In this document: positions 2,465 to 27,329 of the stretch, in pieces
How positions within the stretch are numbered: the first letter of the stretch is position 1
Layout: each line of letters begins with the position of its first letter
From: Candidatus Saccharimonadota bacterium
GTDB taxonomy: Bacteria > Patescibacteriota > Gracilibacteria > BD1-5 > UBA6164
DNA length: 32,000 nucleotides
Assembly (NCBI GenBank): GCA_004563595.2
Contig: CP042461.1
Span: 210,001-242,000 of the forward strand
Direction of reading: 5' to 3'
The notes under the pieces: model-generated
Seen by the model: only the letters and a program-made list of their open reading frames with translations
Database searches by the model: none
Told to the model about the DNA's origin: nothing
Program-made: the position numbers and the translations under genes

Positions 2465-3181
2465 ATGGATACAAACCTCAATCTCGCAGTTCTCATAGAT
2501 GGAGATAATATTCCTTCGGCATATATTGGTGAAATGATAGAAGAAATAACAAAGTATGGAAACCCTACTATCAAGAGGATTTACTGAGACTGGACTCGTC
2601 CTGGACTCAAGAAATGGAAAAATCTTCTCCTCGAAAATGCTATCACTCCTATCCAACAATATGGATACACAACATGAAAAAATGCCACAGACTCAGCTAT
2701 GATTATAGACGCGATGGATATACTCTACAGCGAAAAAGTACACGGTTTTTGTCTCGTATCCAGTGATAGTGACTTTACTAGACTTGCAACCAGACTTAGA
2801 GAAGCAGGGAAACTCGTTATAGGAATCGGAGAAAAAAAGACTCCAAATCCTTTTGTCGTAGCCTGTGATAAATTTGTATACATCGAAATACTCAAAAAAC
2901 AAACCCAGAAATCTAAAGAAAGCTCAATAAGTGTTGATACTATTGGAGCAAAGGAAATTGCACTCATATCATCTACTATCAACGATATCTCTGACGAAGA
3001 TGGCTGGGCTTTTCTCTGAGATGTTTGAGGACTTATACAAAAGAAGCAACCAAGCTTTGATTCCAGAAATTACGGTTTCGAGAAGCTTACCCCCCTTATT
3101 AAAGCAACTTGAAAATTTGAAATAGAACAACGAGATAATTCAAAATCAAGATATAAACTGATTTATGTACGAAACTTATAG
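2465..3181 (+). CDS. NYN (LabA-like) domain protein with C-terminal OST-HTH/LOTUS domain
   Basis: NYN motifs are LAVLIDGDNI, RIYGDW, GKNATDSAMIIDAMD, LVSSDSDFTRLATRLREAGK. The C-terminal DEDGWAFLGDVGGLIQKKQPSFDSRNYGFEKL matches LOTUS. It is in frame with track ORF 2699..3019. Confidence 0.85.
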
Positions 3182-4202: not shown

Positions 4203-4493
4203 ATGATCAAAGATAAAGTGATCTCAATTAGTGAGTTAAGAAGTAATGCAACAAAGATTATAGAAAACTTACCAAAAACAGGTGACCAATATATTTTTGT
4301 GCATAATAAACCAAAGGCAGTGTTAGTAGATATTGATTGGTTTGAAACAGTAAGTCAGAAATATAATAAACATGGTATTGAGTATATTAATCCTGATATT
4401 TTTGAGATTGATTCTATAAAAGAATATGAATCTAGAAAGAAAAAATGAGATTTAGAATATGTAGAAGCATTTAGTTTTTTAGACTCATTATAG
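4203..4493 (+). CDS. Phd/YefM-family type II antitoxin
   Basis: The N-terminus ISISELRSNATKIIENL...YIFVHNKPKAVLVDIDWFE is typical. The gene ends 4 nt before the toxin gene. Confidence 0.8.
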
Positions 4494-4497
4494 TAAT

Positions 4498-4761
4498 ATG
4501 TATAAAATAGCCATTGAGAAAAGTGTTACGAAGTTTTTAGAAAAACACAAATGAGAGAAATTGATTGAATTATTTAAAGAAAAGTTAATTATTTTATCAA
4601 ATAATCCATATAAAAATAACTTAGATATAAAAGCATTAGCTTGAAATGAGGATAAATATAGACTTAGGATCTGAAAGTATAGATTTTTATATGAAATACA
4701 AGAAGACATTATCACTATATCAATTTTGAGTGCTGATAGTAGAGGTTGAGTCTATAAATAA
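4498..4761 (+). CDS. RelE/ParE-family type II toxin
   Basis: The signature KYRLRIGKYRFLYEIQEDIITISILSADSRGGVY is present. The gene is 87 codons and tightly coupled to the upstream antitoxin. Confidence 0.8.
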
Positions 4762-10221: not shown

Positions 10222-11844
10222 ATGCAACATATAAAAAATAAATGATTTACTTTAGTAGAGCTTATAGTTGTTATAACAATATTAATAATTCTTTGAACGA
10301 TAGCATTTATAAGTCTTCAATGATATACGAAATCAGCAAGGAATAGTACGAGAATATCAGATATAAAAAATACGGTAAATGTATTGGAACTTTTTTCTAT
10401 TAAGACAGGAAAATATCCACTTCCATGAAATGCTGTAGATAAAACAGCTTCATGAGGAACAGTCGTATTGTGGCAGTCATGAGATATGGATATAGTTGTT
10501 CAAAGGCAAGTTGAAAGACTTTCAAAAGTACCACTTGATCCGACAACAGGGGAGACGATGAAGTATGCAACGACATTAAGTAGAAAGGAGTATGAACTTA
10601 AATATGATTTTGAACTTGCACAGAATAGTGTTATAAATACAAGTTATGCCGAGGAAACTGCACCATATGTAAAATGAAACTATAATGGGTTATACCTATT
10701 AGCAGACAATAATACTTATTATTCAGTGCCGTGACTCCATACCTCTACAAATATACTTGATACAGCCGTAGATTTTGAGTTAAATAATCAGGTAGTTAAT
10801 TATCAAGTATGACCATTAACAAACTCATGAGTAACGCTTACAAAAACAAACCTAAGTACTAATTTTACTAATTTTGCTCTTGCTTTAAAAACAAGTTATG
10901 CGAGTGTACCTGAACTCAATGACGGTTTATATTCTGAGCTTATTAATATAGATGCCTCATCTGCAGAACTATTTATTGAAAATCTCTTGGATGCTAAAGC
11001 TGAAGCAGTCAATGCATGTGCTGCAAATCCATGATATACAAATACTACTTTTACCGCTTGATCACCCGCAAATGACGGTGAAGCATGGCAAAACACAAAT
11101 AGTGGAAACTCATGTTATTATGAGTGTACATGATGATACACTTGAAATGACTGTTCAGTAGAGCCTTTATACTGATGGAGAGCTTTAGATTCAAATTGTG
11201 ATATAGAAGATATATCACTCAACTCACAAGTATGGGCATGATGTAACTCTACCTTATGAGATTGATTTGAATGGGGGAAACAAGATAATGGGAATAATGG
11301 AACAATTATTTCATGTTATAATTATTCTTCTGTTAATAATGCAACATGTACGATATGAGATGTATCTATGGCAAGTAACACAAAGGCTAATACATGGTTT
11401 GCTGGTTCTAATGCAAATGGAGATCAGGAACAAGCTAATATATGGTGAAAACTCTATACATGGAATAATAGAGACAGCGCTTGTGGTACTTGATATCATG
11501 TGCCCAGTGATGCGGAATGGGAAGTACTAGAAACATATCTCAATGGATGAACAAATTGTAGAATAGGTCAAGATGGATGGAAATGTAGTGGCTTGGGATG
11601 GGAAGGACATAATTGAAAAACATCATCAAATAATATAGTTGAAGCTTTAAAGATCCCTTTAACATGATACCGTACATCTAATGGGAGCTCATTTACTTAT
11701 CGTGGATCGTATACTTTCTTATGGTCAAGTACTGAATCAGCAGGTAATGCTTATTATAGACGTGTACATTGGGATTATGACACAGTTGGTCGTGTTGCAG
11801 GGAATAAATGATTTGGATATTCTGTTCGTTGTATTAGAGATTAA
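10222..11844 (+). CDS. type IV pilin-like protein with C-terminal FISUMP (Fibrobacter succinogenes major paralogous) domain
   Basis: The class III signal is MQHIKNKG|FTLVELIVVITIL, with Glu5 present and the cleavage Gly encoded by TGA. The C-terminal part has GKLYTWNN..ACGTGYHVPSDAEWEVLETYL..FLWSST..GYSVRCIRD, the TIGR02145-type pattern. I checked all 541 codons and found no TAA or TAG. Confidence 0.85.
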
Positions 11845-17654: not shown

Positions 17655-19640
17655 ATGAACACACAAAAACAAGCCTTTACACTGGTTGAGTTAATAGTAG
17701 TTATAACAATATTAGCTATTTTATCGACAATAGCATTTATAAGCCTTCAATGATACTCTGAAGATGCAAGAGATAGTACGAGAATAAGTGATATCAATAA
17801 CATAAAGATATCACTGGAACTTTTCTCACTGGCAACATGAAAATATCCACTTCCAGATAATTCACAAGACGTTACATATAGTTGATCTACACTATGGAAT
17901 CAATGAACGATCTGAAACCAAGTTATAACCAACCTATCAAGAAATTTATCAAAAATACCAACTGACCCCCTCTATGGAACAGAATATGTATATTCTACTC
18001 TTGAAAATAAAAAAGAATATGAGCTTATGAGTTTATATGAATGAAGTAATGTATCAAGTAATGGACTATTAAATACCACCTATGCAGCAACAAATACAAC
18101 TGTAAGAATGGATGGAACATATAACTGACTTTTTATAAAGACAGCAAACTACATAATACCAACACCCAGTATTATAACCGCAGATACATTACCATGAGTA
18201 CTTGATTCAGAGTTAATACAATCACAAGTAACCAATGGGGGAACGAATATTCCAAATATGTGAATTGCAAAGATTTCAGTATCAACAGGAGCATTATCAA
18301 ACTTATCATTATCTGTTTATAATGGATCTATCAATGAAGATTCATCTGCAGTAGAGAAACTCGCTGTATATCAAGCATTAGAATGAGCTTATTCAGGTTC
18401 AAGTTTAGCAAATAAATGAATCTACAAAACACTATTAGCTCAAACTACAGATGATGAAAAAGTAACTTTTACTCATTCGGTTGTGGTAAATGATAGCTCT
18501 GAACATAACCTAATTACTGGAACATGTGATAATGCAACAAAGCCAACAGATAATGGAAATATAGCATATATCGAGAACCCAACATGAGAAAATCAAGCAT
18601 ATGTACAAGATGGAGGAGAATGTTGATATACCTGTACTGGTTGATATACGTGAGTGAGTTGTGATATCATTCCTGCACTTATAACAAGCGCAAACTGTAC
18701 ATATGCAAATTGGATATGGATATCAAGTTGATATGATGTGAACATCTGAACAAGTCAATGAGATTGATTTTGTATATCGCCAAGAATGTGAACTTTTTGA
18801 GAATGAGCAACTGATGGTATGCCATGGAATGGATGGTGAAATGATCTTGTGAATGGAAGTTTTTGAGGTTGGGATAGTAATGCTGTAGATGATACTTCAA
18901 ATACATCAGTAGCAAAATATGGACAAACAAAACTCTTAGATACTGATAGTTGATATACTTGTGTAATATTATGATCAGCGAGTAGTGATTATGACCTCAC
19001 AGATGCTCAAGGAGATACTATTTATAATAGAATGAAATGGTTAGCTACCAATCAGTCAAATCTTACTGAGTTGCAGAATATTGATTGGATACAAAATGCT
19101 ACTCCACCAAATGGGCACTCAGTATCAGCATTATTTTTATCAGATTGTATAGATGGGGTAAAAGATTTATGAACAACAATGAGTTATATTCATAATGATG
19201 GGAATTCAGAGGAAATTACATATGCTGAATATAATACAGATGTAAGTTCAACTACATCTGGTTGAGATTTATCAAATACTACGTATCAAAATAGGCAAAA
19301 ATATTTAACTGCGTGGACTCAAGAAGTAGGCTCACACCTCCCGAGTGCATTTAGTTATATTATCAGTTGAAACGCTTCGGCAAATGATACTGTTTGAGAT
19401 TTTCTTACATGAACAGATAGGTGAGAATACCAAATGGCATGTGATAATTGATTGTTAACAGATCTTGAGGGGAACCCAGATCAAAAATGGATATGGCTAT
19501 CAGCTATTGGTTGAATGAGTGGGAATTATTGGGGAGCTGGTGCTCGTATAATCTGAGAAACTGCTTGTGATAATCAACATCATAGTAGTACTGGTGGTCG
19601 TGATGGAAGTAAAGCTGCAAGGTTTATAGTTCGTCCATAA
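17655..19640 (+). CDS. large type IV pilin-like protein (661 aa), paralog of 10222..11844
   Basis: The N-terminus is MNTQKQA|FTLVELIVVITILAILSTIAFISLQGY. I translated it line by line with TGA=Gly and found no TAA or TAG in 661 codons. It carries the Cys-rich motif ECGYTCTGGYTGVSC. Confidence 0.8.
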
Positions 19641-19746: not shown

Positions 19747-20664
19747 ATGGATACATTTAACGACAAAATACTTTTTAAGTCAAGGCAACACAAAATTGTA
19801 TTATTTTTCAATTTCATACCATTATTTTTGCTTTTTATTCTCCCTCTTTTGGTAGGAACTTATTTTCTATTGGAGTTAACAATACTCAGTTTGTCTCTTA
19901 TTTTTACTGCATTATGTCTTATAAGCTTTGCGTGGGTATATTTTTTCTGGAGTAAATCTTATTTTTTGATTACAAATAAAAAACTATCTATCAAAGTAAG
20001 AAATGGGATATTTTCAAAATACCATATGAGTATTTATTTTAAGAATATCAAAGATATAGCATATGCAAAAAATAACATCTTTCATTATATGTTTAATTAT
20101 GGGACCTTCTTTGCGAGAAGTTCAGCCTGAGCAAGTGGAGATTTTGAGTGAGCAGCACTTCCAAAGGTAGAAATAATATATAAATATGTAAATAATATAT
20201 ATCTTTTAGCAGAAGAAAAAAGAGAGCTTTTAGATTCTCTTGAATCTATAGATTCAGGTATGCTTTTGAAAAAAGAAGTCAAAGAACCTTTTGAGGAAGC
20301 TATCCAAAAAGAACAAAAAATATTATGAGATATTCAATGAATAAAAGAAGTTGTATTATTAAATGATAAGGACAGGTCTTTTATTTTTGAAAATGAAGAG
20401 GATAGAAATCATGGGGTTTATGAACTGTTAAGAAAAAAGATAGCATTTGTAGTGACTCATGATTCAAGCTTGAGAGAACCTGATGAATCTATTGTATTGC
20501 AAAAATGAGAAAAAGTTATTTTCCCAACGGTAAAGTTTCATGAAATAAAAAGAGACTGAGTTATCTCAGCCTCTCCATCTCTCAAGGTCCATAATTACTT
20601 GAAAGATAAATTTGAAAATCTTTGAACAGATGATGCTACTATTTTGATAGGGTTTGATATGTAG
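19747..20664 (+). CDS. membrane protein with bacterial PH (YdbT/bPH_2-like) domain
   Basis: Two N-terminal transmembrane (TM) segments are followed by YFLITNKKLSIKVRNGIFSKYHMSIYFKNIKDI. Track ORF 19747..20130 continues through several TGA to TAG 20662-20664. Confidence 0.5.
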
Positions 20665-20668
20665 ATTT

Positions 20669-20734
20669 TTAATCATCCATTCCAGAATGAGTCCAATCAG
20701 ATTTTGCATGTCGTATTATGAAGAGAGTTTTCAT
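20669..20734 (-). pseudogene. 21-codon remnant of a histidine phosphatase (SixA/PGAM-type) gene
   Basis: MKTLFIIRHAKSDWTHSGMDD* keeps the catalytic RHA(K)S..W N-terminal motif. The frame stops where the 3' end of the convergent gene begins. Confidence 0.4.
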
Positions 20735-20737
20735 ATG

Positions 20738-21220
20738 TTATCTATTATTAGTTTTTACATTACATTGAGCCATATTTAATGATTTGGTGTTTTTTATTGC
20801 CTGTTCTATAATACCTGTATAAAGTATTTCAGATTGAAGGTTATTATTTTTTGCTCATGTCTTCTTCATAAAGTTTTGGAGCTTTGAAAATGATAAATTT
20901 TGTAGAATAAATGAAAGCTCTACTCCTTTTGGTTCATCTTGTATTGAAGTTAATTCAGTTTCCATTAATGATCGTATTTGAAGGAAAAGATATACTTGCT
21001 TTATAAACAATTGTCATTCAGTATCTATATATTGATTGTTAGATGTTGCATATATATTATGTTCTATTCATTCATAGATAAGAGCGCTTATTTCTTCATC
21101 ATTGGAGTTTATTATTCTCATAACTCGATCTTGAAATTGAGCAATTACTATTGGAGCAATTATTTTTTTGAGATAGGGTGAAGGGGGTTTATGAGTCTGA
21201 GAAGGACTATTTAGTTGCAT
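20738..21220 (-). CDS. hypothetical protein
   Basis: The minus-strand frame is 161 codons with TGA=Gly. I recognise no family. Plus-strand track ORF 20978..21181 is a shadow. Confidence 0.4.
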
Positions 21221-21365
21221 GTTTTTTATCTTATAATTAATGTTCTGCGTATCTTATAAAGATTGTTTATAAAGTCAAAAGAGTTTTTGTAAAATGCCTA
21301 TATTTTGTTTTATATCCTTATGTACTATTAAGAATATGATAATGTTTAAAATAATTTTTCGAAAT

Positions 21366-21398
21366 TCTTACCTTTCTCTTACTTTGGTTTTATATAAT
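21366..21398 (+). promoter_or_regulatory. direct-repeat box promoter TCTTAC-N5-TCTTAC-N10-TATAAT
   Basis: Hexamers are at 21366-21371 and 21377-21382, and the -10 box is at 21393-21398. The inverted repeat ATGTAAT-N6-ATTACAT (21404-21423) follows. Confidence 0.5.
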
Positions 21399-21548
21399 TG
21401 CACATGTAATTTAAATATTACATTTTCTTAATGATATAAATATATATTAAAAACAACCGTTTTTATCCTTACAATTATAAATACGCAGGATAACAAAAAC
21501 AAATACAAAAATATATATTCTACATTTTACTTATTAATAACAATAGTT

Positions 21549-22370
21549 ATGAAAGCAAAAAAAATAATAGCTACTACAGCTTTAAGTACAGTTTTATTAG
21601 GTTTAGGAATGACTGCAGTGTCTGCTGATTCAGATGAAAGTACGTATGAAGATAGAAAAGAAATGAGAATGGAAGCAAAAGAAAAAATGCATGACATGAA
21701 AGAAGATAGAAAAGAGTATATGGAAGGGAAAAGAAAAGAAATGAAAGAAAATAGAAATGAATTTAAATCTGAGAATAAAGAAGAAGTAAAAGAATTAATT
21801 GAAGCTTTATCAGATGAACAAAAAGAAGAATTAAAAGCTTTAAAAGATATTCATAAAGCTGAAACTGATGCTTTAAAACAAGAAATAAAAGATGCAAAAG
21901 ATGATTTAGAGACAAGAGATGAGTTAAGAGCAAAATTTGATGCACTGAGAGAAGAACATTTTTCTGAATTTAAAGAAATTGTTGGTGAAGATAGCGAGTT
22001 AGTTGAAAAAATGACAGAAAGACATGATATGTTTAAAGAAAACATGGAAATTAAAAAAGAAATGCACGAAAAAAGAAAAGACTTTAGAGATGATAAAAAA
22101 GAACTTATTGGAAAATATAAAGGAAAATTTATTGAAAGATTAGGTTCTAAGTTAGAAAAAATCTCTACTGATAAATTAGAGAAAATCTCTTCAAAAATAG
22201 ATGCTTTATATGAAAAAATAGAAGCAAAAACAAATATTTCAGATGAGAAAAAAGATACAATTCTTTCTCAACTTACAGCTCTACAAGACATAATCGATGA
22301 AAGATTAGAAGATAGTGATGCTGAAGAATTAGAAATAGATGATATTGTTGATGAAGTTTTAGAAGACTAA
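21549..22370 (+). CDS. secreted K/E-rich helical protein with two LTXXQ-type motifs (Spy/CpxP-like?)
   Basis: The signal peptide is MKAKKIIATTALSTVLLGLGMTAVSA. The mature part is highly charged. It carries LSDEQ (aa 87-91) and LTALQ (aa 242-246). The ORF is intact in either code. Confidence 0.75.
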   Translation: MKAKKIIATTALSTVLLGLGMTAVSADSDESTYEDRKEMRMEAKEKMHDMKEDRKEYMEGKRKEMKENRNEFKSENKEEVKELIEALSDEQKEELKALKDIHKAETDALKQEIKDAKDDLETRDELRAKFDALREEHFSEFKEIVGEDSELVEKMTERHDMFKENMEIKKEMHEKRKDFRDDKKELIGKYKGKFIERLGSKLEKISTDKLEKISSKIDALYEKIEAKTNISDEKKDTILSQLTALQDIIDERLEDSDAEELEIDDIVDEVLED

Positions 22371-22383
22371 TACCTCGTTACCA

Positions 22384-22420
22384 AAAAGAACCAATTTTAA
22401 AAAAAATTGGTTCTTTTTTT
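22384..22420 (+). terminator. intrinsic terminator
   Basis: The hairpin AAGAACCAATTTT..AAAATTGGTTCTT is followed by a run of seven T. Confidence 0.8.
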
Positions 22421-22427
22421 GTTACTT

Positions 22428-22460
22428 TCTTACGTAACTCTTACTATATACCCATATAAT
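22428..22460 (+). promoter_or_regulatory. direct-repeat box promoter TCTTAC-N5-TCTTAC-N10-TATAAT
   Basis: Hexamers are at 22428-22433 and 22439-22444, and the -10 box is at 22455-22460. Confidence 0.5.
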
Positions 22461-22639
22461 ATATGTATATATCGAATAGAACATGAAAAAAATAAAAACA
22501 AAAAATCAGTATTATTTATATTTAAATTAGGAATTACTATTGTTACAAAGTAGGTCATATTTTTAAATACTATATCAATAATACTTGAGGGATAAATGAT
22601 ATATCAAGAAAAAAGTTAGAATATGTATTCTAGCTTTTT

Positions 22640-22672
22640 TCTTACTTGATTCTTATTTTAAATAGTTAATAT
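22640..22672 (+). promoter_or_regulatory. direct-repeat box promoter TCTTAC-N5-TCTTAT-N10-TAATAT
   Basis: Hexamers are at 22640-22645 and 22651-22656, and the -10-like box is at 22667-22672, about 27 nt upstream of the response-regulator ATG. Confidence 0.45.
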
Positions 22673-22698
22673 ATAAGCATAATATTAACTATTTTTAT

Positions 22699-23358
22699 AT
22701 GAAAGTTTTAGTAATAGAGGATAATGAATTACTTTCAAGAAATCTTGTGAGGTATTTGGAATTAAAAAATATAGAATCTGATACAAGCTTTGATTGAAAG
22801 GATGGACTATACAAGGCATCGATTCATTTTTATGATGCTATAATTTTGGACATTAATCTCCCAGAAATAGATTGATTGGAGGTATGTAAAAATTTGAGAG
22901 AAAAATGAAAAAATACTCCAATTATTATGTTGACTTCTAGGTCTTCAAAAACAGATATAATTGTGTGACTTAATAATTGAGCAGATGATTATCTTGTAAA
23001 ACCTTTTGATTATCAAGAGCTTATAGCTAGAATAGACTCGCTTACCAGAAGAAACTTAAAGAACAAGAGCATATCAAAAATAGAAGTTTGAGAATATATT
23101 ATTGATCTAGAAAAAATAGAAGTTTCCAAAGGAGAAGAAAAAATAAAACTATCAACTCTTGAATTTGATCTGTTTAAATGTCTTGTTCAAAATAGATGAA
23201 AAGTCCTTTCTAGGAAGGATATATATGAAAAAGTCTGGTGAGAATTCGAAGAGTTTATGTTTAGTAAAACGGTTGATGTATATATTTGATATCTGAGGAA
23301 GAAGCTAGGAAGAGAAATGATTGAAACAAGAAAATGATTTTGATATATAATTAATTAG
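22699..23358 (+). CDS. OmpR/PhoB-family response regulator
   Basis: Receiver motifs are VLVIEDN, AIILDINLPEIDGLEVC, PIIMLTS and GADDYLVKPF. The winged-helix C-terminus has LSTLEFDLFKCLVQNRGKVLSRKDIYEKVWG..VDVYIGYLRKKL. Confidence 0.95.
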
Positions 23359-23360
23359 TT

Positions 23361-24605
23361 ATGGAAAGATCTAATTTAAAGAAAACAAGGAGGAAATTAA
23401 CTATTATGTTTACGATATTAGTTTTTTTTGCTTGTCTTATTTTGGGCTTAGTATTTTTATGAGCAAAATACCTCCATGAAAATAAAATTGAAAAAGATAA
23501 TTTTGCTTTTTCAACAAATACCATTCAAAAAAGGTTCATAAATTTAAAAGAATTCATATCAGTTCACGAGATTTGAAACAGTCTTTTTACGAGGGATAAG
23601 AACAGTTGAATTGTCAGAAAAAAGCCAAAGATAGAAGATAAATTGATAAATTTTTTAATTATAGATTCTGCTTGAGATATTATATATCAGAATATAAGAG
23701 ATAATATTGAATGAAAAGTGCTTGAAAGTGTCCTTCAAAAATTAGTATATAATAGAGTGTATAGAATTGATGATTACTATTTAAAAATCTCTGATTTAAT
23801 AGATCAAAAAGAAAAATATACTATTATATTTATAAAAAAACTAAGATATGATAAGGATGATTATATTTATGATTTTATAAGATTTCTGTTGATCTTATCT
23901 ATTTTTACAATTATTTTATATTTTATTTGATATAAATTTGTACAAAAAAATTTAGAACCTGTTGAAGAAACACTTCTCGATATGCAAGACTTTATTCATA
24001 ATGCTGGCCATGAATTAAAAACACCAATCTCTGTAATACATTGAAATTTACAATTACTCAAAGAAATAAAAAAATATGATAAAGATTTACTTATCGAATG
24101 AATAAAAGAAATTGAGAGATTAGATAAATTAATTGAGTGACTGATAGATCTTTCAAATATTAATAAAGAAGATAACTTAGAAAAATTATATGTACAAAAA
24201 GAAATTCAAGATATAGTATCTGACTTTGATGTAAAAATAAAAGATAAAGATTTAAGGTTAGTCACAAAACTTGAGTCGAAAATAGTTATCCATGCCAATA
24301 GGGAATATCTGTATATAGTAATTTCAAATTTACTTTCAAATGCTATTAAGTATTCAAATAAATGATGAAAAATCACTGTTGTACTTGATAAAAACAGATT
24401 GATTATGAAAGATCTTTGAATTTGAATCCAAAAAGAAAATTTTGAAAAAATCTTTATGAGATTTTTTAGGGAAGAAGGGATAAGAAGTTCGGATAGCTTT
24501 TGAATATGATTATCACTCGTGAGAAAAATAGTGAGGATCTATAACTGGAAAATAGAAGTCCAAAGTAAAGTTTGAAAATGAACGAAGTTTATAATTACTT
24601 TTTAA
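23361..24605 (+). CDS. sensor histidine kinase (two TM segments, HisKA + HATPase_c)
   Basis: Motifs are H-box FIHNAGHELKTPISVI, N-box ISNLLSNAIKYS, G1 KDLGIGI and G2 FGIGLSLV. It is in frame with track ORF 23718..23930 and starts 2 nt after the regulator's stop. Confidence 0.9.
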
Positions 24606-24614
24606 ATAAAAATA

Positions 24615-25700
24615 ATGCCTAAAACAGTAAAAAATTTTAATGTATGACCTTCAGAGTTATTCCACTGAGTAGCAGATTTTTTAATAGATGGTCTGAAAAA
24701 TGACGATTTTATTATTCCTCATAGGTGACCAGCTTTTTCAGAGATGTATAAAAATACTGAAAAAGCCTTTTATGATTTTTTTGAAATACCTGATGATTAC
24801 AGTTTGTTTTTCACATACTCTGCCACAGAAGGGATGGATATTCTGATAGAGTGAGTGGTAGATGATAGTATTACTCACATATCAAATTGAGATTTTTGAG
24901 ATTTATTTTCTGATCTTTCAAAAACGCTTCAAAAAGATGTAAATCTTATAAAAAATATAAGATGATCTCGAGTGGAAGTTGATGAAATGATAGTTCCAAC
25001 TGATGTATTAGCATTGACTGCAAATGATACCTCTACATGAGTGGAATATACCTCAGAAGATTTTAAAGAAATAAGGAATAAATTTTCTGAACAATTGATT
25101 CTTGTTGATGCTACTTCGTCATTTTGAGCTTTGTATTATGATATATCTTCTGCGGATGCATGGTTATTTTCTGTACAGAAGAACTTATGACTTCCATCAG
25201 GGTTAGGATTATTATTAGTGAATGATAAGATTATTCAAAAAGCATGAAAAAGACAAGAAAATTGAGTAAATATTTGAGGACATCATAATATTTTAAGTTT
25301 AAATAGTTTTTATTCAAACTATCAAACACCATCAACACCAAATATTATGTTGATACAGGCTTTAGCTTTTGTTATTTGAGCATATAAAGCTCATTTTTGA
25401 GATATATATTGATTAGAAAAGTATACTTTAGAGAAGGCAGAGTATTTTTACTCTATGATTGAAAAAATAGATACTGTTAGTGTCCTAAATACAGGCAAAT
25501 GAAAATCCAAAACAACATTTGTTTTGGATGTGCCAGATGGGGATGTATATGATTATATATTTTCTCTTTTACAAGGTGAGTGATATAGTGTGAGTCCTGG
25601 GTATTGAAAATTTAAAGAAAAAAACATTCGTGTAGCAAATTTTCCAATTCATTCAAGAAATGATATTGAGGAACTTTTTAAAGTTTTTCATCATCAGTAG
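24615..25700 (+). CDS. serC: class V aminotransferase, phosphoserine aminotransferase-like
   Basis: Evidence is the N-terminal FNVGPSEL, TYSATEGMD, LVDATSS, and FSVQKNLGLPSGLGLLLV with the PLP-binding Lys context. The frame is 361 codons with TGA=Gly. Confidence 0.7.
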
Positions 25701-26309: not shown

Positions 26310-27329
26310 CTAAAAATATATTTCTATAAACTTTAGGATATCAACTTGGTAGAATAGAGTAATAAAAAATCAAATTGCCAGAAATGGTCAAAAAGGGACT
26401 TGGGTCTCAAGAGCTCCTCATTTATTTTTAATTTTTGCAGAGATGATATATCAAAATGAAAGGAAACTTCATGCTACATATGTGGCCATCATCCCTGGAA
26501 AAGATAAAGAGACTCAGAGTATTAATCATATGAAAATAGCAATTCTCAGGTCTCATCATCCCATCCATGCTCACTTAGAAACGAGAATTTGTAGAAAGAA
26601 GAATATAAAGATAGCTCATGCTCAAATAAGACCGTTAAATATAGCTATTTCAGTAAGGTGAATTCAATAAAAAACTTTGAATATATAGAGAGCAAGAATA
26701 GAGCCTACAACGATACTGACATCTGCTACTTCATGAAGTCATTTGAGCATCACTATATAGAGTCAGATAAGAATTATTATTGAGAGTATGATTGCCTGAA
26801 TTCATAGAGATATGCTTTCAACTCAAGCAGGAATATTTGATATGATATGAAAAGAAGGAAAGAGAGTCTGAGCTGATAGAATGATAGTGATTCATATAAT
26901 TCAAAGTCACAAAATTATCTCAGGAATTTCGAGAAATAATATATCATAAAAAGTATAAATAATAGTAAAAAATCAAATGAGAAGAAAGAATATAAGTTTT
27001 ATTATTTCTATACTGTTTCAGTTTAATATGAGAGTAAAATCTATTAAAAAGTAAGCAATAAAGGCAAACAGGAATCACGTTGATATTTCTAAAAATGGAT
27101 AGATAGCACTTACTTGTTTACTACACGAATAACACTTTCATTTATTGAAGAGGTATGAAAATATTGGAATGAGGTCAAGAGCTCTGAGTATCTTGTTACA
27201 ACTCCCACAGTGACTTCTTCCATTGAATATTCCAGACTCTCAAGATTTAATTCTATAGATAATTACAGAAGCAAAACTTCAAAAAAGAGTTCAAAAAATA
27301 AAGAGCATGATATAAAAAAAAGAGTTCAT
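26310..27329 (-). CDS. pilD: prepilin peptidase (A24 family, PilD-type) with N-terminal zinc-binding DiS-P-DiS region
   Basis: Motifs are FGSFASVIIYRIKSG, RSHCGSCNKILRALDLIPIFSYLFNKGKCYSCSKQVSAIYPFLE, AWMGGGDLRIA and VPFGPFLAIG. The frame is 340 codons with TGA=Gly. Confidence 0.9.

What the first reader, a model, noticed from the sequence alone, without database searches (positions are those of the whole stretch)
21366..22672. Three promoters with identical TCTTAC-N5-TCTTAC-N10-(-10) layout flank the OmpR-type two-component system
The hexamer direct repeats are exactly 11 bp apart start to start. They occur at 21366/21377, 22428/22439 and 22640/22651 (the last half-site is TCTTAT). Each pair is followed after exactly 10 nt by a -10 hexamer: TATAAT, TATAAT and TAATAT. 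The repeats occupy the place of a -35 box, which is the classic arrangement for OmpR/PhoB/WalR-family activators (hexamer-N5-hexamer).
- Site 1 drives the secreted LTXXQ protein gene.
- Site 3 sits just upstream of the regulator-kinase operon, which would give autoregulation.
- Site 2 starts a roughly 240-nt leader that contains only a 15-codon ORF (MKKIKTKNQYYLYLN).
Degenerate half-sites (TATCTTATAA twice at about 21227 and 21250, and TATCCTTAT/C) and an inverted repeat at the site-1 start region (21404-21423) add further possible control.
Basis: seen in the sequence. Interest (0 to 1): 0.65.

Follow-up and report, generated by a model that had tools for sequence, protein, structure and literature searches.

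The report
Two-component regulator's three target promoters
Three promoters around a sensor/regulator gene pair in an uncultivated Gracilibacteria genome carry the same repeated DNA motif, most likely where the regulator binds to switch on itself, a secreted protein and a tiny extra transcript; this is how such regulators usually work, shown here in a little-studied lineage.

Summary
TCTTAC-N5-TCTTAY occurs exactly three times in 32 kb (0.02 expected). All three copies are on the + strand within 1.3 kb, and each lies 10 nt upstream of TATAAT, TATAAT or TAATAT.

The genome uses code 25 (TGA = Gly) and belongs to the Gracilibacteria.
- In 12 related genomes the same direct repeat (nCTTAC-N5-TCTTAM, with a TCATAC variant in two divergent lineages) sits 10-11 nt upstream of a -10 box.
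- It lies directly before the orthologous OmpR-family regulator gene and before the same family of secreted all-helical proteins, even where that gene is not next to a regulator gene.
- A matrix built from 13 sites found 7 of its 8 strong hits in six untrained loci within 300 nt upstream of those genes (P = 4e-10).

This is an autoregulated two-component regulon with PhoB/CiaR-type promoter geometry, so a new member of a known kind.

- The secreted protein is not a demonstrable LTXXQ/CpxP protein.
- Site 2 does not start a 240-nt leader. A strong terminator (22606-22643) makes it a stand-alone unit of about 175 nt. That unit is absent from all relatives examined and its product is unresolved (small RNA, 15-residue peptide or relic).

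The parts
21366..21382 (+). Site 1 operator: TCTTAC-CTTTC-TCTTAC
   Evidence: 23.1 bits. It aligns with the L099 site at 233 inside an otherwise diverged intergenic region.
21393..21398 (+). -10 box TATAAT of the secreted-protein promoter, 10 nt after the operator. The hexamer at the -35 position is ACCTTT, which does not resemble a -35 box.
   Evidence: direct reading of the sequence.
21404..21423 (+). Inverted repeat ATGTAAT-N6-ATTACAT at the predicted 5' end of the secreted-protein mRNA. Probably a 5' stem-loop of the 144-nt 5' UTR.
   Evidence: Fold of -4.3 kcal/mol, z -2.8. The arms are identical in L099 with a different loop. L100, L002 and L107 have other hairpin-capable repeats with different loop lengths at the same place.
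21549..22370 (+). Gene for a secreted, highly charged, all-helical protein of 273 aa with a signal peptide ending AVSA/DS. It is the conserved regulon target and its function is unknown.
   Evidence: Only 4 homologues were found in the 5.8-billion-protein database.
22383..22418 (+). Intrinsic terminator of the secreted-protein gene (16-bp stem, -16.3 kcal/mol)
   Evidence: The base of the stem is homologous to the terminator in L099.
22428..22444 (+). Site 2 operator: TCTTAC-GTAAC-TCTTAC
   Evidence: 22.2 bits.
22455..22460 (+). -10 box TATAAT of site 2
22467..22643 (+). Predicted stand-alone transcript of about 175 nt from site 2. It is AU-rich and its product is unresolved.
   Evidence: The start is inferred from the -10 box and the end from the terminator. 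No Rfam match and no homologue in relatives. The body without the terminator shows no fold signal (z -0.63).
22483..22530 (+). 15-codon ORF MKKIKTKNQYYLYLN inside the site-2 unit
   Evidence: Read directly from the sequence. There is no evidence for or against translation.
22606..22643 (+). Intrinsic terminator of the site-2 unit (17-bp stem, -17.9 kcal/mol). Its U-tract ends inside the distal half-site of site 3.
22640..22656 (+). Site 3 operator: TCTTAC-TTGAT-TCTTAT (autoregulation)
   Evidence: 20.0 bits. A 33-nt block covering the operator, spacer and -10 box is identical in L104-L106, whose regulators are 84-86% identical.
22667..22672 (+). -10 box TAATAT of the regulator-kinase operon
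22699..23358 (+). OmpR/PhoB-family response regulator, 219 aa, with 11 TGA = Gly codons
   Evidence: Pfam Response_reg plus Trans_reg_C. It reaches no NCBIfam equivalog cut-off. TGA codons correspond to Gly in homologues.
23361..24605 (+). Sensor histidine kinase, 414 aa. It has two hydrophobic segments around an extracytoplasmic stretch of about 135 aa, followed by HisKA and HATPase_c domains.
24615..25700 (+). Class-V aminotransferase gene starting 10 nt after the kinase gene; possibly co-transcribed
   Evidence: Co-transcription is inferred from the spacing only. L107 has an aminotransferase of a different Pfam family (Aminotran_1_2) at the same position.

Best explanation
The three sites are operators of the adjacent OmpR/PhoB-family response regulator (22699-23358).

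Proposed mechanism:
1. The membrane kinase (23361-24605) phosphorylates the regulator.
2. The regulator binds as a head-to-tail dimer to the 11-bp-spaced direct repeat nCTTAC-N5-TCTTAM.
3. The promoter-proximal half-site ends 10-11 bp upstream of a housekeeping-type -10 box and so takes the place of a -35 box.
4. Binding recruits RNA polymerase, as PhoB does at pho boxes and CiaR does at its repeats.

The regulon in this genome segment has three units, each closed off by its own terminator:
- the regulator-kinase operon itself (site 3, positive autoregulation);
- a secreted all-helical charged protein (site 1), whose mRNA begins with a small stem-loop;
- a separate unit of about 175 nt (site 2).

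What is shown and what is inferred:
- Shown: the motif, its geometry, its restriction to these promoters, and its conservation with the regulator and the secreted-protein family.
- Inferred: binding by this particular regulator, activation rather than repression, the transcription start sites, and any function of the site-2 product.
For: - Three exact sites against 0.02 expected. They score 20-23 bits and the next best position in the window scores 12.4. A further 9 kb of the same genome holds no more sites.
- The regulator has receiver and winged-helix Trans_reg_C domains.
- All 12 distinct relatives whose regulator-upstream DNA was recovered have the repeat 10-11 nt before a -10 box directly upstream of the orthologous regulator or its operon: L001, L002, L003, L004, L005, L084, L085, L086, L099, L104 and L107.
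- Genes of the secreted-protein family carry the site in L002, L004, L099, L100 (no regulator gene within 6 kb), L102 (two paralogues, TCATAC variant) and L107.
- Independent validation: in six loci not used for the matrix, 7 of 8 hits of 18 bits or more lie within 300 nt upstream of those genes, which is 3.4% of the positions scanned (P = 4e-10). There were 0 hits of 14 bits or more in 830 kb of regulator loci from other phyla.
- The recognition-helix region FMFSKTVDVYIGY(L/I)RKKLG is invariant (one Leu/Ile change, in L004) in the genomes with TCTTAC or TCTTAA sites. It differs in L003 and L005, which have the most divergent sites.
- No -35-like hexamer lies at a 17-nt spacing at sites 1 and 2 (direct reading).
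- The same geometry is documented for activation by PhoB, whose boxes lie 10 bp upstream of -10 (PMC1906773), and by CiaR, with TTTAAG-N5-TTTAAG followed after 10 nt by TATAAT (PMC3091779).
Against: - There is no binding, transcription-start or expression data for this organism.
- The direction of control is inferred by analogy. Several regulator promoters have TTG just after the distal half-site (TCTTACTTG...), 15-16 nt from the -10 box. This could act as a weak -35 box, and binding over it might repress.
- Only about 41 kb of an approximately 1.3-Mb genome could be scanned, so the size of the regulon is unknown.
- The site-2 unit is not conserved, so its place in the regulon could be an evolutionary accident.
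Confidence: 0.82

Rival explanations
1. The same regulator binds the same sites but represses: it occupies the -35 region and blocks RNA polymerase (negative autoregulation).
For: A TTG follows the distal half-site in many regulator promoters (TTGAT, TTGCT, TTGCC, TTGTT, TTGGT), 15-16 nt from the -10 box. It might serve as a weak -35 box that a bound regulator would cover.
Against: Sites 1 and 2 have no -35-like hexamer at all (ACCTTT and ACGTAA at 17-nt spacing). They would therefore be very weak promoters without an activator, which leaves little to repress. The fixed 10-11 nt distance to the -10 box across 19 sites is the documented activating geometry of PhoB and CiaR.
Confidence: 0.12
2. 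Site 2 drives a functional small gene: either a regulator-dependent small regulatory RNA, comparable to the CiaR-dependent csRNAs of streptococci, or the 15-residue peptide.
For: Site 2 has a perfect operator and a perfect TATAAT at 10 nt, with a strong terminator about 150 nt downstream. This is the template used to find csRNA genes: repeat, 10 nt, TATAAT, terminator within 250 nt (PMC3091779). Terminator 1 and site 3 are the homologues of the adjoining terminator and site in L099, so [site 2-body-terminator 2] looks like an inserted complete transcription unit.
Against: The unit is absent from every relative, including those with regulators 84-86% identical. There is no Rfam match. The body has no fold signal (z -0.63). 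Complementarity to nearby mRNA starts does not exceed shuffled controls. The JGI annotation calls no gene there.
Confidence: 0.3
3. The site-2 unit is a relic, for example the remains of a duplicated regulon gene (L102 has two tandem secreted paralogues, each with its own site). Alternatively it is an upstream auxiliary binding site for the regulator operon that happens to have a -10 box.
For: The unit is specific to this lineage. Extra regulator-type sites upstream of the main site also occur in L099 (106 bp), L004 (108 bp) and L100. The window spacing of 212 bp is about 20 helical turns. The transcript starts ATGTATAT, like the L100 secreted-gene leader.
Against: No residual protein similarity to the secreted family was found (best E 0.3 against a 185-nt target). 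Both half-sites and the -10 box are perfect, which is not expected of a decaying element.
Confidence: 0.45
4. The repeat is recognised by something other than the adjacent regulator: a different transcription factor, or an alternative sigma factor that reads it as a -35 element.
For: No binding data exist. At L100 the site occurs with no regulator gene within 6 kb.
Against: The motif travels with the orthologous regulator gene in all 12 relatives and diverges where the recognition helix diverges. A tandem direct repeat with 11-bp register is typical of OmpR/PhoB winged-helix dimers. The -10 boxes are of the housekeeping type (TATAAT). The motif is absent from the other promoters of the window.
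Confidence: 0.05
5. The motif is a chance product of AT-rich composition.
For: With two mismatches allowed the pattern is not enriched (16 found, 12.75 expected).
Against: The exact pattern occurs 3 times against 0.02 expected. Two of the three sites have a perfect TATAAT at exactly 10 nt. The motif is conserved in 12 genomes and was validated in untrained loci (P = 4e-10).
Confidence: 0.01

Closest known systems
PhoB-PhoR and the pho box (Escherichia coli)
   Same: An OmpR/PhoB-family regulator, tandem direct repeats in 11-bp register, boxes 10 bp upstream of the -10 box in place of a -35 box (PMC1906773), and autoregulation of the regulator-kinase operon (the last point is general knowledge of the Pho system, not tested here).
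   Different: The half-site sequence differs (CTTAC against CTGTCAT). The regulator scores 164 bits against the PhoB equivalog cut-off of 296. No phosphate-uptake genes lie nearby. The target is a secreted helical protein of unknown function.
CiaR-CiaH regulon with csRNAs (Streptococcus)
   Same: Identical promoter template: hexamer-N5-hexamer, 10 nt, TATAAT. Some promoters drive short terminator-ended RNAs (PMC3091779). Site 2 plus terminator 2 fits the search rule used for csRNA genes. Streptococcal regulators appear among the standard-code homologues at about 40% identity, but whether they are CiaR was not checked.
   Different: The half-site is TCTTAC, not TTTAAG. The recognition helix is TVDVYIGYLRKKL against VVEVYVSKVRKKL in CiaR. 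The candidate RNA is not conserved, has no predicted structure beyond its terminator and no detectable target complementarity.
CpxR-CpxA with CpxP (Enterobacteria)
   Same: An autoregulated envelope-facing two-component system sits next to a strongly regulated gene for a small secreted helical protein. The CpxR box GTAAA-N(4-8)-GTAAA (PMC5063474) resembles the reverse complement of this site (GTAAG-N6-GTAAG).
   Different: The regulator and kinase are not Cpx equivalogs (CpxA 79 bits against a cut-off of 486). The secreted protein is not a demonstrable LTXXQ/CpxP/Spy family member. The genes run in the same direction rather than divergently, and the repeat has a fixed -35-replacing position.

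Membership tests
OmpR/PhoB-family response-regulator operator at a -35-replacing (class II type) promoter | The cognate regulator has a receiver domain and a winged-helix Trans_reg_C DNA-binding domain | tested here: met
   Pfam Response_reg 9.1e-28 and Trans_reg_C 3.9e-21.
OmpR/PhoB-family response-regulator operator at a -35-replacing (class II type) promoter | Two or more half-sites as direct repeats about one helical turn apart | tested here: met
   Hexamers are 11 bp apart start to start at all three window sites and at 16 sites in relatives.
OmpR/PhoB-family response-regulator operator at a -35-replacing (class II type) promoter | The proximal half-site lies about 10 bp upstream of a housekeeping -10 box and there is no -35 consensus | tested here: met
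   The spacing is N10 or N11 at 19 of 19 sites. The -35 positions read ACCTTT and ACGTAA at sites 1 and 2 (direct reading).
OmpR/PhoB-family response-regulator operator at a -35-replacing (class II type) promoter | The site co-occurs and co-varies with the regulator across genomes (autoregulation footprint) | tested here: met
   Present upstream of the orthologous regulator in all 12 relatives. The most divergent sites occur with the most divergent recognition helices.
OmpR/PhoB-family response-regulator operator at a -35-replacing (class II type) promoter | Phosphorylation-dependent binding of the regulator and activation of transcription | not testable with these tools
   Needs EMSA or footprinting and in-vitro or reporter transcription.
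CiaRH-type regulon with regulator-dependent small RNAs | The regulator is a CiaR orthologue with the CiaR recognition helix | tested here: not met
   About 40% identity to streptococcal regulators. The helix is TVDVYIGYLRKKL against VVEVYVSKVRKKL.
CiaRH-type regulon with regulator-dependent small RNAs | Repeat-N10-TATAAT promoter followed by an intrinsic terminator within 250 nt and no long ORF | tested here: met
   Site 2: TATAAT at N10, terminator 22606-22643, and only a 15-codon ORF.
CiaRH-type regulon with regulator-dependent small RNAs | The small RNA is conserved among relatives and carries sequences complementary to the translation-initiation regions of its targets | tested here: not met
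   No homologue in any related locus. Duplex energies with local mRNA starts fall within the shuffled range. Only local targets could be tested.
Cpx envelope-stress system (CpxRA plus CpxP) | The regulator and kinase are CpxR/CpxA equivalogs | tested here: not met
   NCBIfam CpxA scores 79 bits against a cut-off of 486. CpxR is not among the 25 best regulator models.
Cpx envelope-stress system (CpxRA plus CpxP) | The regulated secreted protein belongs to the LTXXQ (CpxP/Spy) family | tested here: not met
   Pfam LTXXQ E 7.2 (7.8 bits against a cut-off of 24.3) and Metal_resist E 0.084. No CpxP, Spy or ZraP chain appears in the PDB profile search or the Foldseek search.
Pho regulon (PhoBR) | PhoB equivalog and pho-box sequence CTGTCAT-N4-CTGTCAT | tested here: not met
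   PhoB model scores 164 bits against a cut-off of 296. The half-site is CTTAC.

The most novel reading that the evidence does not exclude
Site 2 is the promoter of a genuine regulator-dependent small RNA (or 15-residue peptide) gene that was inserted as a complete promoter-body-terminator cassette between the secreted-protein gene and the regulator operon. If so, it would be the first two-component-controlled small RNA proposed in a code-25 candidate-phyla-radiation bacterium. Its terminator ends inside the distal half-site of site 3, so its transcription could also feed back on autoregulation by occluding that site.
Probability: 0.2. Interest if true: 0.6.

Novelty: new member of a known kind. 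Interest (0 to 1): 0.36.

Why it matters
Gracilibacteria are uncultivated, have reduced genomes and read TGA as glycine. Very little is known about how they regulate genes, and the literature searches here found no description of a two-component regulon in this group.

This locus yields three things:
- a testable operator consensus (nCTTAC-N5-TCTTAM, 10-11 nt before the -10 box);
- a small conserved regulon (the system itself plus one family of secreted helical proteins);
- evidence that these organisms use ordinary TATAAT-type -10 boxes and PhoB/CiaR-style activator-dependent promoters.

The regulated secreted protein is restricted to this lineage (4 homologues among 5.8 billion proteins), so it is a reasonable candidate for an envelope or host-interaction factor. 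The mechanism itself is textbook, so a specialist would find it useful rather than surprising.

Tried and rejected
- **Rfam.** A scan of 20600-23000 at E <= 5 gave only sub-threshold matches on the terminator hairpin.
- **Homologues of the site-2 unit.** blastn against the window and 15 related loci gave only noise. tblastn of nine secreted-family or lipoprotein sequences against the unit, to test the decayed-paralogue idea, gave a best E of 0.3.
- **Structure and targets of the site-2 RNA.** The fold signal of the whole unit (z -4.6) comes entirely from the terminator; the body alone gives z -0.63. RNA duplex predictions with the secreted-gene 5' UTR and the regulator, kinase and divergent-gene starts did not beat dinucleotide shuffles. 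A first, larger version of that script timed out.
- **LTXXQ/CpxP identity of the secreted protein.** Rejected after Pfam searches at strict and at E <= 10 thresholds, NCBIfam, a profile search of PDB sequences (best hit 6h9l_A, an uncharacterised protein, E 0.007, then apolipoprotein-like amphipathic helices), and an AlphaFold model (pLDDT 74) searched with Foldseek against the PDB (no hit at E <= 0.001).
- **Attenuator reading of the site-2 unit.** I saw no convincing antiterminator alternative to the 17-bp hairpin when reading the sequence, so I did not pursue this further.
- **Minus-strand 42-codon ORF (22430-22558).** It has a promoter-like match at 22607-22578. I judged it a composition artefact, being the reverse complement of an A-rich tract, and promoter-like matches in the region are fewer than in shuffles.
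- **Whole-genome regulon scan.** Not possible. Look-ups accept only table-11-readable window proteins, so only 9 kb beyond the window was added, and it held no further sites.
Full report
**1. The observation**

| Site | Distal half-site | N5 | Proximal half-site | -10 box (10 nt after the repeat) |
|---|---|---|---|---|
| 1 | TCTTAC 21366-21371 | CTTTC | TCTTAC 21377-21382 | TATAAT 21393-21398 |
| 2 | TCTTAC 22428-22433 | GTAAC | TCTTAC 22439-22444 | TATAAT 22455-22460 |
| 3 | TCTTAC 22640-22645 | TTGAT | TCTTAT 22651-22656 | TAATAT 22667-22672 |

- The pattern TCTTAC-N5-TCTTAY has three matches on both strands of the 32-kb window, against 0.02 expected from dinucleotide shuffles.
- With two mismatches allowed there is no enrichment, so the signal rests on the three perfect copies.
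- A position weight matrix built later from 13 sites scores them at 20-23 bits. The next best position in the window scores 12.4.
- Nine further kilobases of the same genome hold no additional site.

**2. Genetic code and genes**

- The regulator frame contains 11 in-frame TGA codons. In standard-code homologues, 7-9 of these 11 positions are glycine. The window therefore uses genetic code 25.
- The nearest named relatives are Candidatus Gracilibacteria MAGs.
- Genes re-called under code 25:

| Coordinates | Product |
|---|---|
| 21549-22370 | secreted, very charged protein, 273 aa |
| 22699-23358 | OmpR/PhoB-family response regulator (Response_reg plus Trans_reg_C) |
| 23361-24605 | histidine kinase (HisKA plus HATPase_c, two hydrophobic segments) |
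| 24615-25700 | class-V aminotransferase, starting 10 nt after the kinase gene |

- The regulator and kinase reach no NCBIfam equivalog cut-off. They form a lineage-specific system, not PhoB, CpxR, WalR or another named regulator.
- The window lies on a 493-kb JGI metagenome contig.

**3. Terminators change the picture for site 2**

- Two hairpins followed by U-tracts stand out: 22383-22418 (-16.3 kcal/mol) after the secreted-protein gene, and 22606-22643 (-17.9 kcal/mol) between sites 2 and 3.
- Site 2 therefore most likely produces a separate RNA of about 175 nt (about 22467 to 22640), not a 240-nt leader of the regulator operon.
- The last T of the U-tract is the first base of site 3.

**4. 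Comparative evidence**

Loci encoding relatives of the regulator, the kinase and the secreted protein were fetched from genome and metagenome collections.

- *Regulator promoters.* In every distinct relative whose regulator-upstream DNA was recovered, the same repeat sits 10 or 11 nt upstream of a -10-like hexamer directly before the regulator gene. These are L001, L002, L003, L004, L005, L084, L085, L086, L099, L104 and L107, with regulators 47-86% identical. In L084 it lies before a small lipoprotein gene that heads the operon.
- *Consensus.* The consensus is nCTTAC-N5-TCTTA(C/A/T).
- *Closest relatives.* In L104-L106, 33 nt covering the operator, spacer and -10 box are identical to window site 3, although the upstream gene is different.
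- *Secreted-protein genes.* The secreted protein has only four database homologues, plus family members seen in L002, L004, L102 and L107.
  - These genes carry the same site in L002, L004, L099 (two sites), L100, L102 (two paralogues with a TCATAC variant, the variant also seen before the L005 regulator) and L107.
  - L100 has no regulator gene within 6 kb.
- *Independent validation.* In six loci that did not contribute to the matrix, 7 of 8 hits of 18 bits or more fall within 300 nt upstream of a regulator or secreted-family gene. That zone is 3.4% of the positions scanned (P = 4e-10).
- *Negative control.* No hit of 14 bits or more occurs in 830 kb around OmpR-family regulators of other phyla.
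- *Co-variation.* The recognition-helix region FMFSKTVDVYIGY(L/I)RKKLG is invariant (one Leu/Ile change, in L004) where the site is TCTTAC or TCTTAA. It changes in L003 and L005, whose sites are the most divergent.

**5. Mechanism**

The anatomy matches activator-dependent promoters of the OmpR/PhoB family:
- tandem direct repeats in 11-bp register;
- the proximal half-site ending 10-11 bp upstream of a TATAAT-type -10 box;
- no -35 hexamer at sites 1 and 2 (ACCTTT and ACGTAA at 17-nt spacing).

The same geometry is documented for pho boxes (10 bp upstream of the -10 box; PMC1906773). It is also documented for CiaR (TTTAAG-N5-TTTAAG, 10 nt, TATAAT; PMC3091779).

I infer the following. The phosphorylated regulator binds as a head-to-tail dimer and recruits RNA polymerase. 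This gives positive autoregulation at site 3 and induction of the secreted protein at site 1. Binding, the direction of control and the start sites are inferred, not shown. A TTG that often follows the distal half-site in regulator promoters could act as a weak -35 box, which leaves repression as a minority possibility.

**6. The site-1 leader**

- The inverted repeat at 21404-21423 lies at the predicted 5' end of a 144-nt 5' UTR.
- Its arms are identical in L099 while the loop differs.
- L100, L002 and L107 have different hairpin-capable repeats with other loop lengths at the same place.
- Variable spacing favours an RNA 5' stem-loop, for example for mRNA stability, over a protein operator. 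The hairpins are weak (-4.3 kcal/mol), so this remains tentative.

**7. The secreted protein**

- The LTXXQ label is not supported. Pfam LTXXQ scores E = 7.2 and Metal_resist E = 0.084.
- A five-sequence profile finds no CpxP, Spy or ZraP chain in the PDB.
- The AlphaFold model (pLDDT 74) consists of long helices with no Foldseek match at E <= 0.001.
- It is a secreted helical protein of unknown function restricted to this lineage, and it is the most consistently conserved target of the system.

**8. The site-2 unit**

- Terminator 1 is homologous to the single terminator of L099, and site 3 to the L099 regulator site. The block [site 2-body-terminator 2] therefore looks like an inserted, complete transcription unit.
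- The unit fits the search rule used for CiaR-dependent small RNAs.
- Evidence against a conserved function:
  - no homologue anywhere examined;
  - no Rfam match;
  - no structure beyond the terminator;
  - no above-background complementarity to nearby mRNAs;
  - no residual similarity to secreted-family proteins.
- Extra regulator-type sites upstream of a main site also occur in L099 (106 bp), L004 (108 bp) and L100.
- Its product therefore stays open: small RNA, the 15-residue peptide (22483-22530), a relic, or an auxiliary site.

**9. Comparison with known systems and verdict**

- *PhoB and CiaR.* The element works like a PhoB or CiaR operator, but it fails the sequence-level membership tests for the Pho, Cia and Cpx systems.
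- *CpxR.* The half-site resembles the reverse complement of the CpxR box GTAAA (PMC5063474). This is a resemblance only.
- *Classification.* The finding is a new member of a known kind. It is well supported by phylogenetic footprinting, in a lineage for which my literature searches found no published regulon.

Interest is moderate to low. The unresolved site-2 unit is the only part that could turn out to be unusual.

Noticed in passing
window, whole; e.g. 22699-23358: The genome reads TGA as glycine (code 25). The regulator has 11 in-frame TGA codons, and 7-9 of them lie opposite Gly in standard-code homologues. Most genes in the window contain several TGA codons.
   Followed up: yes
window 4203-4493 and 4498-4761: A type II toxin-antitoxin pair: Phd/YefM antitoxin (Pfam 6.1e-10) followed by a ParE-family toxin (9.4e-06).
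   Followed up: partly
window 10222-11844, 17655-19640 and 26310-27329 (-): Two large proteins with prepilin-type N-terminal methylation motifs (one also has a Fib_succ_major domain), and a prepilin peptidase (A24_N_bact) nearby. This suggests a type IV pilus or pseudopilus apparatus with unusually large pilin-like subunits.
   Followed up: no
L099 1337-1999: The regulator of the closest secreted-protein relative has an in-frame TAG where all relatives have Lys (GADDYMT*PF). The rest of the gene and the kinase gene are intact. This is a nonsense mutation, a sequencing error or a recoding event.
   Followed up: partly
window 22428 to 22640; L099 127 to 233; L004 4887 to 4995: Additional regulator-type sites lie 212, 106 and 108 bp upstream of a main site, which is about 20, 10 and 10 helical turns. 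This may reflect in-phase cooperative binding or may be coincidence (n = 3).
   Followed up: partly
L100 5870-5897: Three further half-sites (TCTTAA, GCTTAG, TCTTAA) in 11-bp register lie just upstream of the main site of the secreted-protein gene, reminiscent of multiple pho boxes.
   Followed up: no
L102 406-923 and 945-1869: Two tandem paralogues of the secreted helical protein. Each is preceded by its own TCATAC-N5-TCATAC repeat with a -10 box at N10.
   Followed up: partly
L107 4192 (- strand): An 18.2-bit matrix hit with CATAAT at N10 lies antisense inside the secreted-protein gene. About one hit of this strength is expected by chance in all the DNA scanned.
   Followed up: no
window 21229, 21252, 21316, 21467: Four isolated YCTTAY half-sites, all on the + strand, lie in the site-1 intergenic region and leader, against about 1.2 expected. 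They are not clearly conserved in L099.
   Followed up: partly
window 2465-3181: A protein with an NYN ribonuclease domain and an OST-HTH/LOTUS domain (Pfam 4.8e-39 and 6.4e-19).
   Followed up: no
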